Source: an uncultured virus (IMG/VR IMGVR_UViG_3300048018_000259) (lineage: Duplodnaviria; Heunggongvirae; Uroviricota; Caudoviricetes; Crassvirales). Taken from it: a stretch of DNA of 64,000 nucleotides. The number at the start of each line of letters is the position of its first letter. Positions within the stretch are counted from its first letter, which is position 1. Under the pieces are notes generated by a model, which saw only the letters and a program-made list of their open reading frames with translations, was not told the origin of the DNA and searched no databases. The position numbers were made by a program, and so were the translations under genes. The stretch lies in the IMG/VR virus record IMGVR_UViG_3300048018_000259; one strand, 5' to 3'. Of this stretch, positions 12,471 to 62,888 are shown in pieces.

Positions 12471-12659
12471 ATGTATTGTAAATGCGGAAAAAAAGTACAT
12501 CCTGTACGAATTGAACTAGGCTATAAAACTTGTATGCCATGTAGCACAACCCAAACCTATTCATATGTTCCAATCATTGAACATAAAACCGGAAATACAA
12601 TACAAATCGTCAGCCAAGAAGTCAGTGCATCTGTTCACCGTGCTTGGAGACGCAAGTAG
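12471..12659 (+). CDS. C4 zinc-finger protein, DksA/TraR-finger-like (62 aa)
   Basis: CKCG...HPVRIELG...CMPC. Confidence 0.6.
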   Translation: MYCKCGKKVHPVRIELGYKTCMPCSTTQTYSYVPIIEHKTGNTIQIVSQEVSASVHRAWRRK

Positions 12660-12741
12660 CTAGACGAGTAACTTAATTAGGTAAGAAATAGGAAACAACA
12701 GTTACACTAACTTACACATAAGTGAATTGCTAGCTACTAAC

Positions 12742-12819
12742 GGGGGTGACCTGGTATTGACGCGATAGAAAGCCTATATGGAACTATTGCGGAAGACAGT
12801 TCGATTCTGTCCACCTCCA
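12742..12819 (+). ncRNA. Minimal tmRNA-like RNA (tRNA-like domain only)
   Basis: Acceptor GGGGGTG/CACCTCC with G3:U70 and discriminator A; stemless D loop ending TTGAC; helix GCGATAG/CTATTGC; T arm GACAG-TTCGATT-CTGTC. Confidence 0.8.
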
Positions 12820-12834
12820 CTAAAAAATAATAAT

Positions 12835-13092
12835 ATGAATAAAAATTACAACGGCTGGACAAACTATGCCACTTGGCGAGTAAACTTAGAAATACTTGGC
12901 GACATTGAATTTGAAGAACAAGTTTCTGCAGATTATTTAAAAGATTTAACTGAAGAATGCGTTTTTGAAGGCGGAGCAACTCAAAGAATAGCTGATGACT
13001 ACGCACAAGCTTTCCTTTCTGATGTTAATTACTACGAAATTGCTAACCATATCAACGACGATATTAAATTACAAGCAGAATACGACAACTAA
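12835..13092 (+). CDS. Early hypothetical protein, YNGWTNYATW family (85 aa)
   Basis: Start moved to 12835 because the longer ORF overlaps the RNA gene; N-terminal motif common in phage early proteins. Confidence 0.7.
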   Translation: MNKNYNGWTNYATWRVNLEILGDIEFEEQVSADYLKDLTEECVFEGGATQRIADDYAQAFLSDVNYYEIANHINDDIKLQAEYDN

Positions 13093-14023: not shown

Positions 14024-14096
14024 AGCGCTGTAGAGCAGTGGCCAGCTCGTTGGGCTCATAATCCAAAGGTCGTCGGTTCGAATCCGGCCAGCGCAA
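14024..14096 (+). tRNA. tRNA-Met(CAT), initiator type
   Basis: Cloverleaf; anticodon loop CTCATAA; unpaired 1:72; GGG in the anticodon stem; T arm GTCGG-TTCGAAT-CCGGC; CCA not encoded. Confidence 0.9.
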
Positions 14097-28168: not shown

Positions 28169-31100
28169 TTATTTGTTCATAAGTTCTAATATTTTATTTA
28201 CTCGGTTCTTTTCGTATTGCAAAGCTCTTATTTCTTTTTTTGACAATCCAAACTTAAGCAATGTTTTTACTTGATCAGGTTTGTTTTCACCTTTAATAGA
28301 ATCAAACTGTCTTCTAAGTTTTCTTTCCGCACTTTCGTTTTTAGGTTTTATTTTTACTTTTGGCTCTTCTTTAACATCTTCAACTTTAACCTCAGGTTTA
28401 ACCTCTGGCGTAACTTTTGCTTTTTGAAGTTCTATTATTTTTTCAACTCTTGCTTGCTCTTTACCTAAAGCTTTTATTTCTTTTTTAGTAAGCCCTAAAT
28501 CTAAAAGCATATCAACTTGCTCTTTAGTTTTAGTTTCTTTTTTCATTGTAATAACATCTTCTATAGCTTGCTCTTCAGGAGTTAATACTTTTGCAGCATC
28601 AAATCCGCCATAGTATCCTAAACCTACATCCCATGTAGACCAACCTAATCCTAGCGCAACTTTCTGCCAAAGAGCGGATTGTTCGTTTACAATACCTCGC
28701 ATACTATTCAGCTTTTTTATAACTCTATCAAGAGGTATATTAGTAAGTCCAGTTGTTATTTGAGCGCCTGCTAAATAAGCTGGATTGTCTAAACTAAACC
28801 CTTTGCTTTTTATATCTTTCATATTCCAGCTAAAACTTCTAAGTCCGCTATTTATTTTTTGTATCTTAGAACCAAGAGGCGGTGAGAATCCTAATAAATC
28901 AAATACTGCTTCTTCGTATTTAGATCTATCTTTTGCGTGTTGCTTACCTAATTCCATTAAAGCAGTTTTTAAAGCAACTACTGCGGCACCGCCAATACCT
29001 AATCCTTTAAGCTGTGAATCAATCATACCATTTGCTACTCTTGAAATCTTTTCACTTTTCTTAGCATCCATTTCTTCTTCGTCATCTTCGCCAAATCCTA
29101 ATGCAAACACAGCTTGTTGCAGAGCATTGAATATTAAATTCTGTACAGCACCGTAATAAACAATTTTAGATACGTTTGTTTTCCAATCGCCTCTACCGTT
29201 TATAAGATCTTGAGCTGCTCTTTTTTGTATACGAGCATACTGCATAGGTGTGTTTGCCCACGCTAATATTACACGACCCGCACCAGACGCTTGTTGTGCA
29301 CTAATTCTATTTGGATTACTTGATTGCTGGCTTTCTTCTGCTATTTGTCTGAAGTCATCAAACGCTTGCTTTTCTGCAGCTTTTTGATCCATTCCTTTAG
29401 CCACTAAAGCTTTTACTCTGTTTCTATAAAATGTAGAGCCACCTGTTGCAATAGCAAAACTATCCGCAAATCTAGTCATAACAAAACCTTTACTTAATAA
29501 AAATGCTATAGCAGACTTTACTTTGTTTTTAGAATCTCTTACAGCATCTGCTATTTCAGATTCACTTACATTTATTTTAAGTCCGTTTCTACGTTCAACT
29601 AAGTAATCAGAATTCATAAGTGTCATGAAATCACTCCAGAATTGTTTTTGATTAGCAAATGCTAAACCAGCTTTAACAATATTATTATCACCCCAGTTTA
29701 TAAAGTTTACCGATGATATTGTTTGAAGCAACGCAGACCTTGTATTTAAAAACATTACAGCACCTACAGAATTGTTCAACCAATCTAATAATCCATCAGT
29801 AACTCTGTTGCCGCCTGGAGGTCTGTTGCTACCAGATTTCATTCTACGTAAAGAATCTTCCATAGCTTCACGCCATCTAGTTCCGTATGCAGCTTCCATT
29901 TTATTCATATTATCTTCTGAAAATATGATGTCTACATTTTCTCTCCACTCTTGTTGGTACTCTGCTCTGTTTACTTTATTGATACCGTTTATAATATCGC
30001 TAGTTATGTTACCACCCAGCCAATTATTTCCAGGCTTAGGATAAGGTTTGCCTTTTTGAATTTTCATTAATTCATCTGTAAACACACTAAGCTCTGCATT
30101 GTTGTTTACAAAATCATTTAATTCTTTTATATCTTTTTTAGACAAACCTGGAATGCTCATACCTTGCTTAGACCACACAGCAACACGAACAGCATGTGAA
30201 AATGTAAATCCCCCTATACCTGTTGGCTTGCTTAAGCTTTTAGGTAAAGTTTTTAAGTTTTGTTTTAATGCCTTAAAGTCATTTGCTGCCGCTATTTTAG
30301 CTTGTGTTACAGCTGATTCAGCCCTGTCATAAGGATCAAGTAAATTTGTTTTAAGAAATGCCATTTGAGCATCTCCTCTTTTGCCTTTACCTAGCATTTT
30401 ATATAATAATCCTGTAAAATCTTCAGCGGATGCTGGTATAAAGAAATTAAACTTTCCTTTGTTAGCACCAACTGTTTTAGCTCTAGCAGCAGAGTATTGT
30501 TTATAAGTTTCAATACCTGAAGAATCTTCAATCATATCGTTTACGATAATATCAAAAGTTTCGAGCTTACTTTCTTTTGCTAATTGAACTTTAGACTTTA
30601 CATCGATTTGACTAAGTACATTTTTTACAGCTTTTACATTTTTAATTGCATCATCTGCAAAATAAAAATCATTATAACCTTCTGCGGCTTTACCCATTAT
30701 CCAACCAGCTTTTGCTTCAGCTGTTCCATCACTTAAACCTGTTATATTTTTTAAAGGTATATCAATACCATTTGCTTTCATAAAAGCTTTTATAGAGCCA
30801 TCAGCATTTTGAGGTCTTGCTGTAAGTATAAACACATCTTCGGTTCCTCTTGCGTCTGCTATTTTTTGAGCAACTTCAAATAAGGGCCCTTTCTTTCCTT
30901 CAACAACTTTGCTAAATTCTGTAAAATCAAATTCTGCGCCTTGTGATTCAAGATCAGATGCTTGCTGAGCAAATTGAGTTGCGTTTATTTTTTTAGAACT
31001 ACCGTCAGGCATATTAACAATAACCATGCTTTTTGATTTTGCAAGTGTGTCATCAAAATCAAATACTCTAATCTTTTTAACAGGTTGATTTAGTTTTCTA

Positions 31101-34100
31101 GCGTTGTTTAATGCTTTATCAGTTTTTTCTAATGCATTTACAGCTGTTTGTACAGTTATAAGTCTGTCATACTTTATATCATTTGGTATTAAATCACTAT
31201 CAAGCTTTGAAGCCATTGACTTCCCAGGTACTAAAGGTATAGAAGCTTTAATAACTTTTGCTACGTTATAATCAGAATTTTCTATAGTTTCTAGTATAGC
31301 TTCGTTTTGAATACTAGAAGCTTGCACTTTTTCGTTAGCATTATATCCGTCATATATTTTTGGGTCAATACCAAAACCACTTTCTTCAGCAACTGTTTTT
31401 CCTGTATCAGGATTTTTAAGTGTATTTAAATCAATTCCTGCAGCAGCAAGCCTTGTTATAGGATTACTAAATATGCTTTGCCCTTCTACTAACGTAGAAT
31501 CCAATTTAGCTTGATCCAATAAATCATCATCAAATTTAGAAAGCTGCGTTTGATAATAGTTTTCTTTTATAGCTTTCATTGTAGGAGCAGCAGCATTGCT
31601 TTTAATAGCTAAAAGTATAGACGCACCAACTACTGAAGCAGGAGGATTGTGTTCTTCTCTATATTTTTTTCCTTCTCTTTGTTGCTTTTTTGAATTAATA
31701 CCACCATATTTCATTTCGATTGAGCGATATTTAAATTGTGCAGATATTTTTACTAAACCTGCGGTAGCTTGATAACTTTGTATAATAATAGCAGCAGCTA
31801 TATCTAATGACATATTATCTGCAACAGCATCAGTAAGTTGGTTGACCACATGATCTAAAACAACCATGTTATCTTTAGCCCTTTGTGCAGCTAATTCTCT
31901 AACTTTTTTATTTTTAGAGAAAGCTTGAATAGGCGACACTCGCATAGCTTTAGGCCCATTATAAGCCTTAGCACTTTCTATTAGCTTTTTGTAAGCAGGA
32001 TCACTTTTGCCGTAATATAACCTACCAGGTTTAGCAATCCAATTTGTTATGCCTTTAGTATCAATTTCAACAAATTTACCGTCTGTTGTTTTTCCAAACT
32101 TAATAGGTTTTTTTATCCCAGCTTCAGAAGCTTGCTTAGCAGAAGAATACATTTTTCCTCCCTTAATACCATAAAAAGTTTGTTTACCCCCGCTACCCAT
32201 TTTACCAGCTTCTATAACAGCAGTGTCTAACCCATACTTAACAACAGCTTTCTGCATAGCAACTTGCTGAGCTTCTCTGTTGGATTCATTTATAGGTGGG
32301 GACTTAAAACCTAGCTTATTAGCTAATTGTTTTTTGTCTTTTAAGACAGACACCTCTTTAAATGCGGTTTTAATTTTAGGAGGCATAGCATCATAACTTT
32401 CTAGCTTGCTAGCCATAGATGTATTCTTGCCAGCTGCAACATCTTGTTTAGTTTCTAAACTTAAATCTGTATCAGATCGTACAATTTCATTTGTTACAAG
32501 TCTTCCATACAAATTAGCAATACCTTTTAAAGCTTGGGCTTGAGAAGATCTAGCTTTAAACCCTTCTTGTTTCTTGCCATCAACAATACCAAATGCTTCT
32601 AAAAATTTTGCTTTTGTAATTCCTTTATTTAAAACAAATGGCGAAAGCCCAGCACCTTTGCCAAGTCTATCTTTTTTAGTATAAAATGCATCGAGCAATC
32701 CTTTTGGCACGCCCGTAGAGGTGCCTAAGAGCTTCTCTGTTGCAGCTTCTACTACTGCACCTTGTGGTAATATCTTTAATAATTTATCTGCGTTCTTATT
32801 GACAAATTGCTGAATAGCTGTAGCGTCTGCTTTTGATAAATTAGCAGCGGGTACAGTAAGTTTTTTAACCGGTATGCCAATTTCTTCTGCAATAATTTCA
32901 GGAGCTAAATCACCAAGCTTTTTAAACGTTAAATTTTTAGGATCAATGCCTTTAATTTTTTCCTGTATTTGTTCTTTAATTTTAGTTACCGCGTCTTTAG
33001 AAATAAGTGAACTAGGTTTTATTTTTCTAGTAACAGGTTTTGTACTTACTTCGGTAGTTACTTCTTCAGCAGCAATTCCTTTAGCTTCTGTTACATCTGC
33101 AGTAAACTCTTTGCCTAAAATTCTTTGCGAAGCTTCTATAGCTCTAGCGGGTAAAAATTTATTTACATAAGCGGCTAATGGCACGTTTGATTTAGGGTCG
33201 TATTCTTTAATTAAATCTATTATACCGCGTTTGCCTGTTTCAATTTCATCTGTTAATAACTGACGATCAAAATTAGGCGCTTCACTTCTTTTATCTACTA
33301 TTTTATTTACTATGGGTTTGAATTGTTGTATAATATCAAATGCCCCATCAACACCTTTAGCCTCATAAATAGTTTGCACTTTATTACTGGCTTCAATGTT
33401 TGATTCTAATTTGCTTTCTTTTGCAACTATCTTTTTATTTTCAGTTTCAACCTTAGCCAGCTCAGTATCTATTGATTTAATTTCACGAGCTCCTTTAGTT
33501 CTACCGTCAACTTTTTCAACTATTCCATCAACTAATTTGCCTTCCGCTCCTTCTCTAGCTATTTTAAGTTGTGCTTCACTTAATTTTTTACCAGAGTTAA
33601 TTGTATTATTATATTCTCTTAAAAAATTAAAAACATCTAAGCCAGTATTAAATTCAATATTTAGCGGTTGCTTTTTATTAGATTTAAAAACATTAGATAT
33701 TTTATCTTTTAATGCTTCAAAAAAGCTTTTTGTTTTTTCATTATAAACAATATCACCATCTGAAATAGCTTCACTAACCAAAGGAATGACTTCCTCATAG
33801 GTCATTTCAGCTGAGTAGTTTTTATCATCTATATAGTCCTGAAGCCTGGCTCTCATCTTAGCGCCACCTTGGATTTGTTTATTATTTAATATTTCCGTTA
33901 TTAAAGACTTCCCAAATGTTATTGCTAGCTCTGGGTTGTTTTGGAATGTTTGTTTAAAAAATGGGTGTAAAAGCTCGTGTTGATCTGTAGTATACTTCTG
34001 TCTTTCTGCAGCAACTCTATCGTTTATTAATATAATAGTTTCACCATCAAACTCAATAGCCTGTCCATATCCTAATGACTTTTGCACCTTAGCGCCTTTA

Positions 34101-36688
34101 TCTGCAAGTTCTTTAACTCTAGCATCGTAGGATTCTTGTGTGCCGTAATTTTCAAATTTTGCTCCTAATTGTTCTGCTATTAATCTTGCACCTTCTCTAG
34201 TTTTAGAGCCTTCAATGTCGGTAACCCTATCCTGCACAATAAGTTCTTCAATTTGCAATTTTACTTCATCTAATTGCGCTTGATCCCCATTATTATTAGT
34301 AATATCAGAGTCATCTACTTTTTTAATTTTTTCTTGTAATTTATTTCTTTGGATTAAAAGCTTAGCTATAGGTGCTTGGTTTTCAAAATTAACACCAGCT
34401 TCTGATAATATTTTTGCACTATTTTGTGTATTTATAAAATTTTGCTTTATTATATCTGCTTCTCCTTGAGTCATTTCCCCGCGATTAACTTCTGCTTTTA
34501 GCTGCGTATTTAGTAAGCTTAAAGAGCCATTAACGTTTGATATTTTTAAAGAAGTTTCAGACACATTAGAATCCCCAAAGGCGTTGTACATGTAATCAAT
34601 CTTGCCGTCTTCCAATAAGGTATTAACCCTTCTATTAGTTGCTGCTTGGTTCAGATAAGATCTTCCTGCTCCAAGGGCTGTAAGTTTTGACCCAAAAGCA
34701 CCTCCTATTAAAAATGTATCAAATCCTTCTGCAAACTTTTTATTAAAATCTATTTCGTTTCCAGTATATAAATATTCTGCTAATTCATTTAAAACAAATG
34801 TACCTGTTTCTGATCCACCCTCTGAAGCAAAACCTAAACCTATATCTTTAAAATAATTTCCTAAATTTTTAAAAGCATCATCTGCATTTTTTGGCCTAAA
34901 ACCAAAAGCTTTTTTAGCTAACCCTCTAGTTACAATTTCTAGAGCACCCTCAGATACACCAATCATCATAGAATAACCTGTAAGTGCTAGATCTAAATCA
35001 TTACCTTCCATTTGTTTTTCTCTACTAGCAGCAGAAGCCTCACCTACTATTAATAAAGGTATACCCACATAAGGTATTGCAACCTCAATTAAACTAGTAG
35101 CAGAGGTTAAAGCATCAGTAGACAGCCTAGTCATTTGACTTACAAAGCTTCTATCAAAAACCCCCTCTGTAATGGTTTGATCAAATACACGCATAGAGGA
35201 GTTTATTCTGTCTACTTCTCTAAACATTTCATCTGATATGTTTAATAAATAATTAGCAACCATTCCTTGATCACCTCCAGGAGTCATCCCCGCTAGCTTA
35301 TTTATTGCTCTAGCTCTTTGTTCGTAAGGCAAAGCATTTAAAGCTGTTAATGTTTTATCGTCAAGAGTAATAGAAGCTATTGTTTGATTAATATAACTTG
35401 GTATACTTAAAACTTTACCTCCTATACGAATAACTCCTGCTTTAAGACCTTTGCCTAAACGGTCTCCAAATTCTAGACGTTCTGCGTTTTCAGAATTTCG
35501 TTGCATAGTTGATAGCACTACACCAAATTTATCTTGCTCAGCTGTTAGATTATAATCCTCAGCGGTTAATTGCATTACAGAAGTAGCCTTTTTGCCTGTT
35601 CTTGCTTCGTAATTATCAAAAGCCTGTTTGTCGTTTGCTCTAGGAATTTCTTGCTGTTTCCCTTTTCTGTAGAAGCCACCTTCCTCATCGTAAAATGCTT
35701 GCTCAGGGTTATTTTTTAATTTACCATCAGTATCCCTTAAGTTATTCATTTCAGCTATTTCCTGATTTGTAGGGCCTTCCTTTATTTTTTTTGCAAAGTT
35801 ATAATCATCTACTAATTCATTTCTATTTTTTAATAAGTTATTATAAAGAACTGCCTCTTCTTTAGTGTAAATAATAGGTTCTCCTTTATCATTAAAATTA
35901 AAATCAGTAGTAATAATTTCATCATATTTTTCTATTTGAACCTCTAAAGGAACAGGCTTATAACCGGGGGCATATGGGCCTACATAAGGATCTTCTTCTT
36001 TTACAAGCTCTCCTTTTGAGTCCATCTTCCATATATTAGGATCATCTCCTTCTTTAATTGGTTGATTTAAAGGTATAGTAGAGGGTACTAAAGTATTGTT
36101 ATTAAGTTGATTTTGTCTTTCAATAGCTTTAATCCTTCTTTTTTCAGCCTCTTTTTTTCTTTTTTTAAAATCTTTTAGCTGTTTTTCTTGCTCTTCATTT
36201 AAGTGACCTAATTCTCCTGCTATGCTAAAAATAGCAGTGCTATTATTTTCTAATTTCCAATCTTCGGCACCTTCTTTTTTTTGGTAGTACTCTATGTTTC
36301 CTTGCTCATCAACGTTCCATTTAAAATCGTAGCTATTAGCTGTGTACGTTTGATCTTTAGATACAACAGAATTAAGCTTTTCGTTTTGCTTTTCTTGTTT
36401 TTTAAAATCATCTAAAGATACGCCAAATGAATCTTGAAACATATCACTAAATACTCCTGCGTAGTATTTGGATTTTCCACTTCCAAAAGTTGAATTCTCG
36501 GACGCTGCACTGTCTTTCCCTGGTGCAGACACATCCGTCTTTTCCTCCACAACAGGGTCTATCTTTACTTCTTCAACTACTTCTTCCTCAACTTTAGGTT
36601 GGTTTTTCTTTTTCCACTCTTGAACTTTAGCAGATATATCTGTAGCTCCTTGTTCTTGTAGTGACTGTACATATTCTAGTAATGTCAT
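28169..36688 (-). CDS. Giant polyvalent virion/ejection protein (2839 aa) with zincin, sigma-like and HAD domains
   Basis: Third of three genes after the tail genes; HELLH, sigma region-2-like segment and DFDDTL/LTAR/FADD motifs. Confidence 0.75.
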   Translation of the reverse strand: MTLLEYVQSLQEQGATDISAKVQEWKKKNQPKVEEEVVEEVKIDPVVEEKTDVSAPGKDSAASENSTFGSGKSKYYAGVFSDMFQDSFGVSLDDFKKQEKQNEKLNSVVSKDQTYTANSYDFKWNVDEQGNIEYYQKKEGAEDWKLENNSTAIFSIAGELGHLNEEQEKQLKDFKKRKKEAEKRRIKAIERQNQLNNNTLVPSTIPLNQPIKEGDDPNIWKMDSKGELVKEEDPYVGPYAPGYKPVPLEVQIEKYDEIITTDFNFNDKGEPIIYTKEEAVLYNNLLKNRNELVDDYNFAKKIKEGPTNQEIAEMNNLRDTDGKLKNNPEQAFYDEEGGFYRKGKQQEIPRANDKQAFDNYEARTGKKATSVMQLTAEDYNLTAEQDKFGVVLSTMQRNSENAERLEFGDRLGKGLKAGVIRIGGKVLSIPSYINQTIASITLDDKTLTALNALPYEQRARAINKLAGMTPGGDQGMVANYLLNISDEMFREVDRINSSMRVFDQTITEGVFDRSFVSQMTRLSTDALTSATSLIEVAIPYVGIPLLIVGEASAASREKQMEGNDLDLALTGYSMMIGVSEGALEIVTRGLAKKAFGFRPKNADDAFKNLGNYFKDIGLGFASEGGSETGTFVLNELAEYLYTGNEIDFNKKFAEGFDTFLIGGAFGSKLTALGAGRSYLNQAATNRRVNTLLEDGKIDYMYNAFGDSNVSETSLKISNVNGSLSLLNTQLKAEVNRGEMTQGEADIIKQNFINTQNSAKILSEAGVNFENQAPIAKLLIQRNKLQEKIKKVDDSDITNNNGDQAQLDEVKLQIEELIVQDRVTDIEGSKTREGARLIAEQLGAKFENYGTQESYDARVKELADKGAKVQKSLGYGQAIEFDGETIILINDRVAAERQKYTTDQHELLHPFFKQTFQNNPELAITFGKSLITEILNNKQIQGGAKMRARLQDYIDDKNYSAEMTYEEVIPLVSEAISDGDIVYNEKTKSFFEALKDKISNVFKSNKKQPLNIEFNTGLDVFNFLREYNNTINSGKKLSEAQLKIAREGAEGKLVDGIVEKVDGRTKGAREIKSIDTELAKVETENKKIVAKESKLESNIEASNKVQTIYEAKGVDGAFDIIQQFKPIVNKIVDKRSEAPNFDRQLLTDEIETGKRGIIDLIKEYDPKSNVPLAAYVNKFLPARAIEASQRILGKEFTADVTEAKGIAAEEVTTEVSTKPVTRKIKPSSLISKDAVTKIKEQIQEKIKGIDPKNLTFKKLGDLAPEIIAEEIGIPVKKLTVPAANLSKADATAIQQFVNKNADKLLKILPQGAVVEAATEKLLGTSTGVPKGLLDAFYTKKDRLGKGAGLSPFVLNKGITKAKFLEAFGIVDGKKQEGFKARSSQAQALKGIANLYGRLVTNEIVRSDTDLSLETKQDVAAGKNTSMASKLESYDAMPPKIKTAFKEVSVLKDKKQLANKLGFKSPPINESNREAQQVAMQKAVVKYGLDTAVIEAGKMGSGGKQTFYGIKGGKMYSSAKQASEAGIKKPIKFGKTTDGKFVEIDTKGITNWIAKPGRLYYGKSDPAYKKLIESAKAYNGPKAMRVSPIQAFSKNKKVRELAAQRAKDNMVVLDHVVNQLTDAVADNMSLDIAAAIIIQSYQATAGLVKISAQFKYRSIEMKYGGINSKKQQREGKKYREEHNPPASVVGASILLAIKSNAAAPTMKAIKENYYQTQLSKFDDDLLDQAKLDSTLVEGQSIFSNPITRLAAAGIDLNTLKNPDTGKTVAEESGFGIDPKIYDGYNANEKVQASSIQNEAILETIENSDYNVAKVIKASIPLVPGKSMASKLDSDLIPNDIKYDRLITVQTAVNALEKTDKALNNARKLNQPVKKIRVFDFDDTLAKSKSMVIVNMPDGSSKKINATQFAQQASDLESQGAEFDFTEFSKVVEGKKGPLFEVAQKIADARGTEDVFILTARPQNADGSIKAFMKANGIDIPLKNITGLSDGTAEAKAGWIMGKAAEGYNDFYFADDAIKNVKAVKNVLSQIDVKSKVQLAKESKLETFDIIVNDMIEDSSGIETYKQYSAARAKTVGANKGKFNFFIPASAEDFTGLLYKMLGKGKRGDAQMAFLKTNLLDPYDRAESAVTQAKIAAANDFKALKQNLKTLPKSLSKPTGIGGFTFSHAVRVAVWSKQGMSIPGLSKKDIKELNDFVNNNAELSVFTDELMKIQKGKPYPKPGNNWLGGNITSDIINGINKVNRAEYQQEWRENVDIIFSEDNMNKMEAAYGTRWREAMEDSLRRMKSGSNRPPGGNRVTDGLLDWLNNSVGAVMFLNTRSALLQTISSVNFINWGDNNIVKAGLAFANQKQFWSDFMTLMNSDYLVERRNGLKINVSESEIADAVRDSKNKVKSAIAFLLSKGFVMTRFADSFAIATGGSTFYRNRVKALVAKGMDQKAAEKQAFDDFRQIAEESQQSSNPNRISAQQASGAGRVILAWANTPMQYARIQKRAAQDLINGRGDWKTNVSKIVYYGAVQNLIFNALQQAVFALGFGEDDEEEMDAKKSEKISRVANGMIDSQLKGLGIGGAAVVALKTALMELGKQHAKDRSKYEEAVFDLLGFSPPLGSKIQKINSGLRSFSWNMKDIKSKGFSLDNPAYLAGAQITTGLTNIPLDRVIKKLNSMRGIVNEQSALWQKVALGLGWSTWDVGLGYYGGFDAAKVLTPEEQAIEDVITMKKETKTKEQVDMLLDLGLTKKEIKALGKEQARVEKIIELQKAKVTPEVKPEVKVEDVKEEPKVKIKPKNESAERKLRRQFDSIKGENKPDQVKTLLKFGLSKKEIRALQYEKNRVNKILELMNK

Positions 36689-54685: not shown

Positions 54686-54960
54686 TACTTAGATCTACCT
54701 TCAGCAAAACCTCTAAAAGACTTTTCTTCTTTTATTTCTTTAGGCTTTTCATTTAACAAATCTTCTTCAGCTTCAATGCGATTAAGTATTTCAAAGCAAT
54801 CAAATATTGCTAGCTTTTTTGTGGCTGCAGCATTTTTAAGTCTATCTGCTGATATGTCATCATCAGAATCAACAATAGGTTCTTTTGCTACCTTTATTAA
54901 TTCTTCAACAGCTATTTGACCAGCTAGGATTATATTCTTCTTCGTTTCCTTTGTGTTCAT
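54685..54960 (-). CDS. Small helical protein, possible terminase small subunit (91 aa)
   Basis: TAATG-coupled immediately upstream of terL. Confidence 0.45.
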   Translation of the reverse strand: MNTKETKKNIILAGQIAVEELIKVAKEPIVDSDDDISADRLKNAAATKKLAIFDCFEILNRIEAEEDLLNEKPKEIKEEKSFRGFAEGRSK

Positions 54961-55510
54961 ACTTAATTACAATATCATTTGATTTCATACAATATAAACG
55001 CTTACCTTCAATTAAAAATTCCCATTCACCATTAGGTTTGTAACCTACTAGGTCGCCTGGGTTAATATTAAGCGCTTTTAAGAAGCTATTGCCGTATTTT
55101 AATATACCAATAAGACTTTGCTCTTTTTCCAATGTTAAAGACTCTTTGTCTTTTATCGGTGTTATAAAACATCTGTCATTAAACGAATTCCAACCTGTTT
55201 TATTTTTATATAAATATATTTGGTCTGCAGCACAAAAATATAAGTTATCTTTAAACCAAGATCTACTTTTTTTCTTATCACCTTTCATATCATAAAATGT
55301 TCTAAACACATTTTGATGAATGACAATTGTATCGCCTGCTTTAATCCCTGTGCTAAAAGCTTTGGGGGTTTCTAAAACTTTAGCTAACCTATTTACAAAT
55401 TTAAAATCTTCTATACCTGTGTTTACGATTAGCTGCTTGTTACCAACTTTAATTTTATTACTGTACTCATCGCCTAGCGGTTCTACAATAAAGTCGTATA
55501 TACTTTTCAA
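54905..55510 (-). CDS. Tandem GroES-like co-chaperonin (201 aa)
   Basis: Two GroES-like units: IVEP...IKAGDTIV and DRCFITP...INPGDLV...IEGKRLYCMKSNDIV. Confidence 0.6.
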   Translation of the reverse strand: MKSIYDFIVEPLGDEYSNKIKVGNKQLIVNTGIEDFKFVNRLAKVLETPKAFSTGIKAGDTIVIHQNVFRTFYDMKGDKKKSRSWFKDNLYFCAADQIYLYKNKTGWNSFNDRCFITPIKDKESLTLEKEQSLIGILKYGNSFLKALNINPGDLVGYKPNGEWEFLIEGKRLYCMKSNDIVIKYEHKGNEEEYNPSWSNSC

Positions 55511-60647: not shown

Positions 60648-61094
60648 TTATCTTTCTTTATCTTTGTTTACATTTTTAATTGAAGTAATAAGAACTTTAT
60701 CTGTATATGTTCTACCCTTCATAATACTGTTTCTGTGGGTGCTTACAGGCAAATCATCTTCTCCTAGTATAATTCTATACATATACTTTATAAGATGTTT
60801 GCATTTAAACGATGTCTTGTATATGTGATACTTCTGCGTTGTTCTATTACGCTTTCTCCACACCACAATCCAACCTTCCTTAAGCAATCGATTCCACCGG
60901 CGGTTATCCCAGCTATAGGAATAGCTACCGGCTTCGAAATCTTTTTTTGTAAACATATCCATACAATCTAAATAGATAAGTAATTCTATGTCCGCATCAT
61001 TTAAGTTATTGTTTCTGCAAGCCCACTTACGTATTATACGCCAGTGTTTAAACAGATTCATTTCCTTAAGATCATCTGCGTTTAGCCTTCTCAT
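60648..61094 (-). CDS. Basic protein, possible winged-HTH (148 aa)
   Basis: LNDADIELLIYL...RLLKEGWIV pattern. Confidence 0.5.
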   Translation of the reverse strand: MRRLNADDLKEMNLFKHWRIIRKWACRNNNLNDADIELLIYLDCMDMFTKKDFEAGSYSYSWDNRRWNRLLKEGWIVVWRKRNRTTQKYHIYKTSFKCKHLIKYMYRIILGEDDLPVSTHRNSIMKGRTYTDKVLITSIKNVNKDKER

Positions 61095-61354
61095 AAAACA
61101 ACAACTACATCCTGCGCTTTAATTACGTGATATGTTTGTTTATTTATTTCTATTTTATGCCCCGCGTGCCGATCAAAAAAGATTTTGTCTTTTTCTTTTA
61201 ACCCTTCTACTTGTTCGCCTAGTGATAATACTGTGGCTTGTGTATAACGAATGTCGTCACGTTGGTTTTCTGCAAGAAGTAAACCACCTTTTGTTTTAGT
61301 TGTTCCTTCTTTTAACTTTTCTATTATTATATTTCTACCTATCGCTTTCATCAA
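61091..61354 (-). CDS. groES: Co-chaperonin GroES
   Basis: Mobile loop KTKGGLLL; adjacent to groEL. Confidence 0.85.
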   Translation of the reverse strand: MMKAIGRNIIIEKLKEGTTKTKGGLLLAENQRDDIRYTQATVLSLGEQVEGLKEKDKIFFDRHAGHKIEINKQTYHVIKAQDVVVVL

Positions 61355-62888
61355 TTCTTAAATTATTGATTACACAATCAGTTGATAATATCGTTGTTGC
61401 TACTGAAGCTGCGTTCTGAAGAGCGCTTTTGGTGACTAACAAAGGATCTATAATACCTGTTTTAATCATATTTACCATTTTTCCTGTAACCACATTTAAT
61501 CCTCGTCCTTTAGCTTTTGGTAATTCCGCTTCCGTTATACCGGCATTTTCTAATATAGTCTTAAAAGGTGCTTTAATGGCTTCTAGGAGCACTTCTTCAC
61601 CTTTTGTTTTACTTACTATACTTGTTGATGCATTTAATAAAGCAATTCCACCTCCAGGCACTATACCTTCTTTAATCGCAGCTTTTGTAGCACAAATAGC
61701 ATCTTCAACCCTATCTGTTTTTTCTTTTAATTCGATATCAGAATTAGCGCCTACTTTTACAATAGCTATTCTAGCCGCAAGCATTGCTAATCTTTTTTCT
61801 AATTTTATTACTTTATGAGCCGGATTGTCTTTCGACAACTCTTCTTTTAATTCAGCTATAATGTTTAAAACTTCTTCTGTAGGTTCGTTAAACTGCAATA
61901 TAGTTTCTTGATGCGTTGTAACGCTTTTTAAACAAAAGCCTAAATGCTCAACTTGAATCAAATCTAAATCATCGCCTAAGTCTTCATTTATAATTGTAGC
62001 TCCTGTTAACAAAGCTAAATCATCAAGCATTTCTTTTTTGCTTATACCATAAGTAGGAGCATTAATAACATTTACTTTAATGTTTCCTTTCTTTTTATTC
62101 ATAGCTAAAGCAGATAAAACACCTTGTTCTAAGTCGCCGATAATCAGCAAAGGTTTGTTGTTTTTTATTACATACTCTAGCACTGTTTGAATTTGCCTAA
62201 TTGTATCAACTGGTGATTCAACTAGCAATACTAATGCGTTTTCTAATTCAGCTGATTTGCTTTGAGCGTTTGTTATAAAGTGTGAATTAGTAAGACCTTT
62301 GTCATACTGAACACCATCTACAACTTCAACTTCTGTTTTGCCATCAGCTGCTGTTTCCAGCATTACAATCCCCGTGTTATCTACGGATCTAAAAGCGTCA
62401 GCTATAATGCTTCCTAGCTTTGGATCGTTATTGGTTGATATGGTTGCTATTTGATCAATCATATCGCCTTCAACCGGTACTGATACAGATTCTAAGTATT
62501 TGATTACTTTTTCAACTGCATTGTTAATACCTTCTTTTAACTCTCTCGAGTTTGTTTTGTCCGCTACTTTATAAGCTTCGGTTAATATTGAGTGAGCTAA
62601 GACAGTTGCGGTAGTTGTACCATCACCGGCTTCTCTCACCGTTTTTCTTGCTGCTTCTTTTAAAAGTGTTGCACCCATATTTTCAACTGGGTCTCGCAAG
62701 ATAATCGAGTCTGCTACTGTTACACCGTCTTTTGTTATTACTGGATTACCGGTGTGATCTTCCAGCATTACACATTTGCCGCTAGCCCCTAAAGTGGAGC
62801 TAACAGCTTTTGTGAGTTTTTCTATTCCTTTAAATACATTAACTCTGGCTTCGTTGCCGAAGTTAAGATTTTTGACAATTGCGTCCAT
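61335..62888 (-). CDS. groEL: Chaperonin GroEL (517 aa)
   Basis: ITKDGVTVA, AGDGTTTATVLA, GIVPGGG, GIIDP; no GGM tail. Confidence 0.96.
   Translation of the reverse strand: MDAIVKNLNFGNEARVNVFKGIEKLTKAVSSTLGASGKCVMLEDHTGNPVITKDGVTVADSIILRDPVENMGATLLKEAARKTVREAGDGTTTATVLAHSILTEAYKVADKTNSRELKEGINNAVEKVIKYLESVSVPVEGDMIDQIATISTNNDPKLGSIIADAFRSVDNTGIVMLETAADGKTEVEVVDGVQYDKGLTNSHFITNAQSKSAELENALVLLVESPVDTIRQIQTVLEYVIKNNKPLLIIGDLEQGVLSALAMNKKKGNIKVNVINAPTYGISKKEMLDDLALLTGATIINEDLGDDLDLIQVEHLGFCLKSVTTHQETILQFNEPTEEVLNIIAELKEELSKDNPAHKVIKLEKRLAMLAARIAIVKVGANSDIELKEKTDRVEDAICATKAAIKEGIVPGGGIALLNASTSIVSKTKGEEVLLEAIKAPFKTILENAGITEAELPKAKGRGLNVVTGKMVNMIKTGIIDPLLVTKSALQNAASVATTILSTDCVINNLRIDESDR

What the first reader, a model, noticed from the sequence alone, without database searches (positions are those of the whole stretch)
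12742..12822. A 78-nt tmRNA with no message: tRNA-like domain only
Seen: an alanine-identity acceptor stem (G3:U70, discriminator A), a stemless D loop ACCTGGTATTGAC, a 7-bp helix GCGATAG/CTATTGC closed by a 15-nt loop, a GGAA linker and a perfect T arm. Known: these are hallmarks of the SmpB-binding tRNA-like domain of tmRNA, which normally encloses roughly 250-300 nt of pseudoknots and tag ORF. All helices here are intact, so it does not look decayed. Inference: it could be an SmpB/AlaRS decoy that blocks trans-translation, or it could rescue ribosomes without tagging proteins for degradation.
Basis: partly seen in the sequence, partly recalled or inferred. Interest (0 to 1): 0.85.

Follow-up and report, generated by a model that had tools for sequence, protein, structure and literature searches.

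The report
Phage tag-less mini-tmRNA gene
This marine phage carries a real 78-base RNA gene that copies only the alanine-accepting, tRNA-like end of the bacterial ribosome-rescue RNA (tmRNA); one such RNA is already published, and it most likely competes with the host's rescue-and-tag system.

Summary
Window 12742-12822 (+) matches Rfam tmRNA (RF00023) at 61.9 bits (cut-off 47, E 9e-22). Both ends of the model are matched, and 304 internal model positions are replaced by 11 nt.

A degenerate pattern found 57 similar stretches in IMG/VR. Of the 50 contigs tested, 50 pass the Rfam cut-off as 76-89 nt genes. On 39 distinct sequences, 97.2% of cells pair (45-52% when slid), and 12 of 20 pairs show compensatory changes. 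The G3:U70 pair and discriminator A are present in 58 of 58 loci, although the search pattern did not require them.

An attP origin is rejected:
- 0 of 50 contigs encode an integrase, and 0 of 50 encode SmpB.
- None of the 73 window ORFs hits either family.

The kind is already published. Mycobacteriophage DS6A has a 'TLD only' tmRNA, and a similar molecule inhibits tmRNA in E. coli (PMC4131195, PMC11915505). DS6A's copy shares the same apical module. This scan has also reported such genes on other DNA.

Verdict: a new member of a known kind. Most likely it competes with host tmRNA for host SmpB, which is an inference. Expression, CCA addition, charging and SmpB binding are not shown.

The parts
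12742..12819 (+). Predicted mature TLD-only tmRNA, 78 nt from G1 to discriminator A
   Evidence: RF00023 61.9 bits, model 1-374. MFE fold. Family covariation.
12742..12748 (+). Acceptor stem 5' strand (GGGGGTG). G3 pairs with U70 at 12816.
   Evidence: G3:U70 in 58 of 58 family loci. Pair 5:68 covaries as GC/AU/CG.
12749..12760 (+). Stemless D-loop analogue with the TGG and GA(C) motifs of tmRNA
   Evidence: Aligned with high posterior probability to RF00023 positions 8-20.
12761..12791 (+). Helix-2-like hairpin. It comprises an 8-bp stem (12761-68 with 12784-91), an A-rich 4-nt bulge AAAG (12769-72), a 2-bp CC/GG stem (12773-74 with 12780-81), a 5-nt loop, and AA (12782-83).
   Evidence: 7 of the 8 stem pairs show compensatory changes across 39 sequences. 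The same module is present in DS6A.
12795..12811 (+). T arm (5-bp stem, loop TTCGATT)
   Evidence: 4 of 5 stem pairs covary.
12812..12822 (+). Acceptor 3' strand CACCTCC, discriminator A (12819), then CTA (CCA not encoded)
   Evidence: The phage's own tRNA-Met is also followed by A-CTA.
12471..12659 (+). Upstream 62-aa Cys-rich (zinc-ribbon-like) ORF, syntenic in close relatives. Not shown to be a functional partner.
   Evidence: 68-90% aa identity in 6 of 7 related loci, always just upstream of the RNA gene. No Pfam or PHROG hit.
12835..13092 (+). Downstream 85-aa ORF (DUF7249), starting 13 nt after the RNA
14024..14096 (+). Phage tRNA-Met(CAU), the only other tRNA-type gene in the window

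Best explanation
Window 12742-12819 is a functional gene for a message-less ('TLD-only') tmRNA. It belongs to a lytic podovirus-like phage of marine Flavobacteriia.

Proposed mechanism, in order:
1. The gene lies on the same strand as the early/middle small genes. It is probably transcribed with them and matured like a tRNA: RNase P at G1, 3' trimming, and completion of CCA by the host enzyme.
2. The RNA keeps what host factors recognise on tmRNA. These are the G3:U70/A73 alanine identity, the T arm, the stemless D loop that forms the SmpB-binding elbow, and a short helix 2.
3. It therefore binds host SmpB, since the phage encodes none. It is probably charged with alanine and carried by EF-Tu.
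4. Because it has no resume codon, tag frame or stop codon, it cannot complete trans-translation. It competes with host tmRNA for SmpB and for stalled ribosomes.
5. This lowers SsrA tagging, and the linked proteolysis and RNase R decay, of products made during infection.

Shown here: identity, structure, selection, phage specificity, and the absence of a phage SmpB or integrase.
Inferred: expression, maturation, SmpB binding, charging and the effect on the host.
For: Identity:
- RF00023 scores 61.9 bits (cut-off 47), with both ends of the model matched and 304 model positions replaced by 11 nt.

Selection on the RNA:
- In 7 close relatives the flanks are unalignable while the 81 nt are conserved. 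Neighbouring proteins are only 24-90% identical.
- Across 39 distinct family sequences, 97.2% of cells pair, against 45-52% when slid. The covariation score is 0.655 against at most 0.137, and 0 of 500 shuffles reach it.
- U70 and A73 are present in 58 of 58 loci, although the search pattern stopped before them.

Family:
- 57 IMG/VR stretches were found.
- 50 of the 50 contigs tested pass the Rfam cut-off, at 53.1-79.5 bits.
- The cultured Streptomyces phages LuckySocke and Shaeky carry unannotated copies inside tRNA arrays, at 57.1 and 59.3 bits.
- tRNA genes lie within 300 nt in 11 of 57 loci.

Dependence on host factors:
- SmpB is found in 0 of 50 contigs and in 0 of 73 window ORFs.
- No protein neighbour is shared across lineages.

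Published support (passages read):
- SmpB binds the TLD elbow, and G3:U70 plus A73 are the AlaRS keys (PMC3968760).
Against: - Nothing here shows the RNA is made, matured, charged or bound by SmpB.
- The RNA-library contigs that cover it could derive from DNA, and they give no ends.
- CCA is not encoded: the window has CTA, and only 11 of 58 loci encode CCA.
- If titrating SmpB were the whole function, charging would not be needed (per PMC4131195). Yet the alanine identity elements are invariant in 58 of 58 loci, which fits a role on the ribosome at least as well as a pure sponge.
- The inhibition experiment used a similar molecule in E. coli, not this RNA or its host, and I could not read the primary paper.
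- The two nearest cultured relatives lack the gene, so it is dispensable for this phage type.
- I could not obtain a Flavobacteriia tmRNA or SmpB to compare.
Confidence: 0.55

Rival explanations
1. Tag-free ribosome rescue. The RNA is alanylated, enters stalled ribosomes with host SmpB and EF-Tu, and accepts the nascent chain. The peptidyl-RNA is then released (drop-off with peptidyl-tRNA hydrolase, or an alternative release factor). Ribosomes are recycled during infection, and phage proteins are not marked for degradation.
For: - G3:U70 and A73 are invariant in 58 of 58 loci. G1-C72, G2-C71 and G4-C69 are nearly so, while other stems covary freely. That is what is expected if charging matters.
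- The acceptor and T arms are intact.
- The gene often sits in tRNA arrays (11 of 57 loci; Streptomyces phages).
- CDS-less tmRNAs are kept together with SmpB in mitochondria and some plastids (PMC11915505 passage).
Against: - There is no stop codon or any message, so canonical termination is impossible.
- The published similar molecule inhibited tmRNA rather than replacing it (PMC4131195).
- No release step is known.
- Nothing was tested here.
Confidence: 0.25
2. A tRNA-like decoy or processing element unrelated to trans-translation. Examples: a sponge for host defence enzymes that attack tRNA acceptor or CCA ends, or an RNase P/Z 'punctuation' site that cuts the polycistronic early transcript.
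For: - It is embedded between small ORFs on one strand, with no recognisable promoter or terminator of its own. The promoter scan gave 19 sites against 19.2 expected.
- It is matured like tRNAs by position in arrays.
- In one Poribacteria MAG, two copies lie beside hsdR and between cas6 and cas1.
Against: - Any tRNA would serve for punctuation or as an acceptor-end sponge.
- Here it is specifically the tmRNA features that are conserved across distant phage lineages: the stemless D loop, the GAC/GGA junction, helix 2 and G3:U70.
Confidence: 0.12
3. A remnant or attP copy of host ssrA ends, left by integration or excision at the tmRNA gene, with no RNA function.
For: tmRNA genes are common integration sites, and phages can carry ssrA fragments (PMC9004378 and PMC10865867 passages).
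Against: - Tyrosine integrase is found in 0 of 50 contigs (10 of them at least 90% complete) and in 0 of 73 window ORFs.
- Both halves are present and covary with each other. An attP needs only the 3' part.
- The same pattern hits only 6 stretches in 185,579 species' genomes, all in MAGs, and one of these is a false positive.
- DS6A integrates at tRNA-Lys, not at tmRNA (PMC10865867 table).
Confidence: 0.02

Closest known systems
'TLD only' / CDS-less tmRNA of Mycobacterium phage DS6A (JN698994.1 28478-28560; PMC4131195, PMC11915505; Mao et al. 2009, not read)
   Same: - Phage-encoded and about 80 nt.
- Acceptor stem with G3:U70, discriminator A then CTA, stemless D loop and T arm.
- The same apical module: an A-rich bulge, then a 3-bp CCG/CGG stem with a 4-nt loop (compared).
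- No tag frame.
   Different: - The host phylum differs (Actinobacteria against a Flavobacteriia-type phage here), and DS6A is temperate.
- DS6A scores 43.2 bits, below the Rfam cut-off, while the window scores 61.9.
- The sequences are not alignable by BLAST.
Canonical bacterial tmRNA (SsrA, Rfam RF00023)
   Same: The complete tRNA-like domain and the base of helix 2. Model positions 1-29 and 334-374 are matched.
   Different: It lacks the pseudoknots, resume codon, tag reading frame and stop codon. 304 model positions are replaced by 11 nt.
CDS-less tmRNAs of jakobid/oomycete mitochondria and of Mallomonadaceae plastids (PMC11915505 passage; PMC3590771, listing only)
   Same: Reduced to the tRNA-like domain with no tag frame, and retained together with SmpB.
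   Different: - Those are organellar, mostly permuted two-piece genes with their own Rfam model (RF02544).
- The window hit only RF00023 in a scan of all 4227 families.
- Here SmpB must come from the infected host.
Full-length phage tmRNAs (mycobacteriophage Bxz1 group, Bacillus phage G, two-piece ssrA of Melnitz and pelagiphages; PMC4131195, PMC9004378)
   Same: A phage-borne member of the tmRNA family, often near tRNA genes or early promoters.
   Different: Those keep a tag reading frame. This one has none.
tRNA-Ala
   Same: G3:U70, A73, T arm and 7-bp acceptor stem.
   Different: It has no D stem and no anticodon arm. ARAGORN does not call it, and the tmRNA model beats the tRNA model within the Rfam clan.

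Membership tests
tmRNA (RF00023) | Scores above the curated Rfam gathering threshold | tested here: met
   61.9 bits against 47. tRNA-sized background hits reach at most 41.9 bits.
tmRNA (RF00023) | tRNA-like domain: acceptor stem with G3:U70 and discriminator A, T arm, reduced D loop without a stem | tested here: met
   Features as defined in the PMC3968760 passages.
tmRNA (RF00023) | mRNA-like domain with resume codon, tag reading frame and stop codon | tested here: not met
   Only 11 nt stand in place of 304 model positions. ARAGORN finds no tag peptide.
tmRNA (RF00023) | Pseudoknots PK1-PK4 | tested here: not met
   There is no sequence between the helix-2 strands beyond a 15-nt cap.
tmRNA (RF00023) | Binds SmpB and is charged by AlaRS | not testable with these tools
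   The determinants are present in the sequence. No biochemical test was possible.
Phage TLD-only tmRNA (DS6A kind) | Phage-encoded, about 65-90 nt, consisting of the TLD plus a short capped helix 2 with no tag frame | tested here: met
   Phage gene content. Length 78-81 nt. 50 of 50 family contigs give 76-89 nt hits.
Phage TLD-only tmRNA (DS6A kind) | Shares the apical module of DS6A (A-rich bulge plus a short CCN/NGG stem-loop) | tested here: met
   By inspection. About 30 of 39 family sequences show it (my count by eye).
Phage TLD-only tmRNA (DS6A kind) | Inhibits host tmRNA activity | not testable with these tools
   Known only for a similar molecule in E. coli (PMC4131195).
attP / ssrA integration remnant | Adjacent integrase, and only the 3' part of ssrA carried | tested here: not met
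   Integrase in 0 of 50 contigs and 0 of 73 window ORFs. Both halves are present and covary.
tRNA (RF00005) | Cloverleaf with D stem and anticodon arm | tested here: not met
   ARAGORN makes no call. The fold has no anticodon arm.

The most novel reading that the evidence does not exclude
The mini-tmRNA is not merely an SmpB sponge. It is an alanine-charged, ribosome-entering RNA with which phages rewire trans-translation: stalled ribosomes are freed, but products receive only one alanine and no degradation tag.

On this reading the conserved apical module has a function of its own on the ribosome or with SmpB. That module is an A-rich bulge plus a 3-bp stem, and it is shared from Flavobacteriia-type phages to actinophages and DS6A.

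The invariance of the alanine identity elements (58 of 58 loci) is the observation that a pure sponge does not explain.
Probability: 0.25. Interest if true: 0.7.

Novelty: new member of a known kind. Interest (0 to 1): 0.38.

Why it matters
Trans-translation is a universal bacterial quality-control pathway and a drug target, yet very few natural inhibitors or viral manipulations of it are known.

This gene adds a marine Flavobacteriia-phage member to a class known in print from a single mycobacteriophage. The work here shows three further things:
- The class is widespread: 57 IMG/VR loci were found from one restrictive pattern, spanning contexts typical of different host phyla.
- It is under strong structural selection.
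- It is present but unannotated in cultured Streptomyces phages (LuckySocke, Shaeky), where its function could be tested directly.

Standard annotation misses it, because ARAGORN does not call these genes.

Tried and rejected
Searches that gave nothing or little:
- Close relatives among 50,697 cultured phage records: none for the window's 1-kb region or its 81 nt, and none for the L014 variant. The L012 variant hit only the T arm and acceptor of full-length actinophage tmRNAs.
- The nearest cultured relatives by terminase, MW202828 and Flavobacterium phage elemoA_7-9A, were both searched and neither has the gene (0 of 2).
- No whole genome is held for the window.
- I could not obtain a Flavobacteriia host tmRNA for comparison.

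Signals and partners:
- The sigma-70 promoter and terminator scan around the gene is at chance level (19 found against 19.2 expected). It does not cover Bacteroidota promoters.
- A search for a conserved protein partner across 25 loci found only lineage-specific neighbours: a Zn-ribbon ORF, an exonuclease, and WhiB.

Expression:
- Of 4 RNA-library runs laid, 2 hold contigs across the element. X17 has a 151-nt contig covering 12730-12880 with 0 differences. X15 holds contigs of relatives.
- These are contigs without ends or strand, and DNA carry-over is possible. Nothing can be said about expression, 5'/3' ends or CCA addition.

Other points:
- The missing CCA was considered as evidence for a non-chargeable decoy and rejected. 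The full-length host tmRNA of MAG G052 also ends ACTA, and the phage's own tRNA-Met is also followed by A-CTA.
- Mao et al. 2009 could not be read.
- The AcrIIIA1 paper (PMC11662646) concerns fragments of host tRNA and tmRNA and is not relevant.

Full report
**1. The observation**

- A 7-bp acceptor stem, 12742-48 with 12812-18, with G3 opposite U70. Discriminator A is at 12819.
- A 12-nt D-loop analogue without a stem.
- A helix, 7 bp as described and 8 bp in the MFE and consensus folds, capped by 15 nt.
- A short GAA/GGAA linker.
- A perfect T arm.

The next three bases are CTA, so CCA is not encoded.

Rfam's tmRNA model RF00023 hits 12742-12822 (+) at 61.9 bits. The gathering score is 47 and the E-value is 9.4e-22 for the 64-kb window. 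The alignment matches model positions 1-29 and 334-374 with high posterior probability and replaces the 304 positions between them by 11 nt.

tRNA-sized sequences in three bacterial genomes reach at most 41.9 bits on the same model, so the score is well above tRNA background. ARAGORN calls neither a tRNA nor a tmRNA here. The MFE fold (-28.4 kcal/mol, z -2.8, 4 of 200 shuffles as good) is the expected three-helix structure.

**2. What the window is**

The ORFs identify a tailed phage. They include tail fibres, portal, large terminase, crAss-like muzzle and internal virion protein signatures. They also include a 2839-aa ORF, GroEL/GroES, a sigma factor, ligase, Erf, exonuclease, primase-helicase, thymidylate synthase, MazG and ribonucleotide reductase.
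- None of the 33 (PHROGs) or 73 (Pfam) ORFs hits an integrase, a repressor or SmpB.
- The terminase is closest to an uncultured podovirus (63%). Next come podoviruses of Flavobacterium, Cellulophaga, Tenacibaculum and Maribacter (44%). The host is therefore most likely a member of Flavobacteriia, which is an inference.
- Related contigs rated 100% complete are 64.6-71.5 kb, so the 64-kb window holds nearly the whole genome.
- 14 DNA runs hold at least half of the sampled words. All 14 are labelled seawater metagenome, viral metagenome or metagenome.

**3. Relatives and selection**

*Close relatives.* An exact 21-mer from the T arm and acceptor found 7 IMG/VR loci. Six of the 7 pass RF00023's cut-off at 64.7-66.1 bits. 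The seventh holds the same RNA abutting a tRNA, and its contig passes. In the alignment the flanks cannot be aligned while the 81 nt are conserved. Three helix pairs change on both sides. The neighbouring proteins are only 24-90% identical.

*The wider family.* A degenerate pattern found 57 stretches in IMG/VR. It fixed only the 5' GGGG, parts of the D loop, the GAC/GGA junction and the T loop, and allowed 20-50 nt between. With the window this gives 58 loci and 41 distinct sequences of 77-90 nt.
- Of the 57 loci, I submitted 50 contigs to Rfam.
- 50 of 50 pass the cut-off (53.1-79.5 bits), each as a 76-89 nt hit spanning the whole model.
- None also has a full-length tmRNA.

*Covariation.* On 39 distinct sequences, RNAalifold returns the same three helices, and 12 of 20 pairs have compensatory changes.

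| Measure | Observed | Control |
|---|---|---|
| Cells forming standard pairs | 97.2% | 45-52% with partners slid |
| Cells with changes on both sides | 186 | 20-39 with partners slid |
| Covariation score | 0.655 | at most 0.137 with partners slid |
| Shuffles reaching the observed values | 0 of 500 | - |

Caveats:
- The columns fixed by the pattern are invariant by construction.
- 22 of the 57 loci are at least 81% identical to the window's RNA, so the rows are not independent.

The 3' acceptor strand and the discriminator lay outside the pattern. Even so, U70 and A73 are present in 58 of 58 loci.

*The apical module.* The cap of the helix is not random. In about 30 of the 39 sequences (my count by eye) it has a 4-nt A-rich bulge, a 2-4 bp CCN/NGG stem and a 4-5 nt loop. 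One or two A follow on the 3' side.

**4. Rival origins**

The attP/ssrA-remnant idea fails on four counts:
- Tyrosine integrase is found in 0 of 50 contigs, 10 of them at least 90% complete, and none in the window.
- Both halves are present and covary.
- The same pattern hits only 6 stretches in one genome each of 185,579 species. All 6 are in MAGs, and one lies inside a full-length tmRNA and is a false positive.
- DS6A itself integrates at tRNA-Lys (PMC10865867 table).

SmpB is encoded by 0 of 50 contigs, so any SmpB partner must be the host's.

No protein neighbour is shared between lineages. The window's group has a 62-aa Cys-rich ORF upstream (5 loci). Another group has an exonuclease (5 loci). 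An actinophage-like group has WhiB (4 loci).

tRNA genes lie within 300 nt in 11 of 57 loci.

**5. What is known**

The tmRNA database papers were read as passages:
- They list 'Mycobacterium phage DS6A (TLD only)'.
- The 2025 paper adds ~65-bp CDS-less plastid forms and notes that mitochondrial tmRNAs lack a tag frame.
- I could not read Mao et al. 2009.

I located the DS6A gene at JN698994.1 28478-28560, scoring 43.2 bits, which is below the cut-off. Its sequence shows the same architecture, including the A-rich bulge, a CCG/CGG stem with a 4-nt loop, and ACTA at the 3' end. The window's RNA therefore belongs to the same kind.

Five literature searches found no paper describing the wide distribution of this form in phages. 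A Sphingobium phage paper does suggest that phage tmRNA counteracts host tagging (PMC5648845 passage).

Earlier notes of this scan, on other DNA, reached the same verdict. I re-derived it independently.

*New here.* A variant of the family matches cultured Streptomyces phages over at least 83% of its length. Rfam confirms unannotated 81-82 nt TLD-only genes in LuckySocke (57.1 bits) and Shaeky (59.3 bits). Each lies in a gap of a tRNA array, and Shaeky's array also contains a normal tRNA-Ala.

**6. Mechanism**

Established knowledge (PMC3968760 passages):
- SmpB binds the TLD elbow formed by the D and T loops.
- Helix 2 mimics a long variable arm.
- G3:U70 plus A73 suffice for AlaRS.

All of these determinants are present, and everything needed to resume and terminate translation is absent.

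The best-supported reading is a competitor of host tmRNA for SmpB, and probably for AlaRS, EF-Tu and stalled ribosomes. It would suppress tagging during infection (confidence 0.55).

The invariance of the alanine identity elements is not required for a pure sponge. It keeps tag-free rescue alive as a rival (0.25). A generic tRNA-like decoy or processing role is less likely (0.12), and an attP remnant is essentially excluded (0.02).

The missing CCA is not evidence against charging:
- The full-length host tmRNA of one MAG also ends ACTA.
- The phage's own tRNA-Met is also followed by A-CTA.
- Only 11 of 58 family loci encode CCA.

Expression was not shown. Two of the four RNA libraries laid hold contigs across the element, but contigs give no ends, and DNA carry-over cannot be excluded.

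**7. Verdict**

This is a real, selected gene whose structure was correctly read by the first stage. It is a new member of a known kind, not a new kind.

Its value lies in three things. It extends the class to phages of Flavobacteriia. It shows how common and well conserved the class is. It points to cultured phages in which the open question, sponge or tag-free rescuer, can be settled.

Noticed in passing
window 14024-14096 (+): The phage tRNA-Met(CAU) has an A1/A72 mismatch at the top of the acceptor stem, flagged as non-standard in the Rfam alignment. Like the mini-tmRNA, it is followed by A-CTA. A 1:72 mismatch is an initiator-tRNA trait (recalled), but the anticodon stem has only two G-C pairs plus a G-U.
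   Followed up: partly
window 28169-36688 (-): A 2839-aa ORF in the virion gene block has no Pfam hit at E <= 0.001. It may be a giant internal or ejected virion protein, such as a virion RNA polymerase. It was not examined.
   Followed up: no
window 61091-62888 (-) and 54905-55510 (-): The phage encodes its own GroEL (517 aa) and Cpn10/GroES (87 aa). A second ORF matches a PHROG annotated as co-chaperonin GroES.
   Followed up: no
L079 (G051:C1:846310-846395) and L082 (G051:C1:1999836-1999921): A 7-Mb Candidatus Poribacteria MAG chromosome carries two 86-nt mini-tmRNAs (70.1 and 57.6 bits) besides its full-length tmRNA (197.6 bits). One lies next to a YgjP-like peptidase and a type I restriction R subunit. 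The other lies between cas6 and cas1. The two copies share a 253-nt inverted flank at 98.8% identity, as if part of a small repeated cassette.
   Followed up: partly
L104 1491-1571 (OR725497.1, Streptomyces phage LuckySocke) and L105 1491-1572 (MT701595.1, Streptomyces phage Shaeky): Cultured Streptomyces phages hold unannotated TLD-only tmRNA genes inside their tRNA arrays, at 57.1 and 59.3 bits on RF00023. GiJojo, Alone3 and pSt2308 gave similar BLAST matches that were not checked with Rfam.
   Followed up: partly
L080, L086, L087, L095: In four GC-rich (actinophage-like) loci a WhiB-family gene lies directly beside the mini-tmRNA, in varying orientation.
   Followed up: partly
window 12653-12741: A contig in the RNA library X15 comes from a relative in which the 89-nt spacer upstream of the RNA gene is replaced by 10 other letters, while the RNA gene itself is kept (tables 5 and 5c).
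   Followed up: no
L073 / L077 (G053:C93:1142-1500): The family pattern can fire inside a normal full-length tmRNA. In this Kiritimatiellia MAG an internal stretch resembles a T arm. Pattern hits therefore need confirmation with the covariance model.
   Followed up: yes
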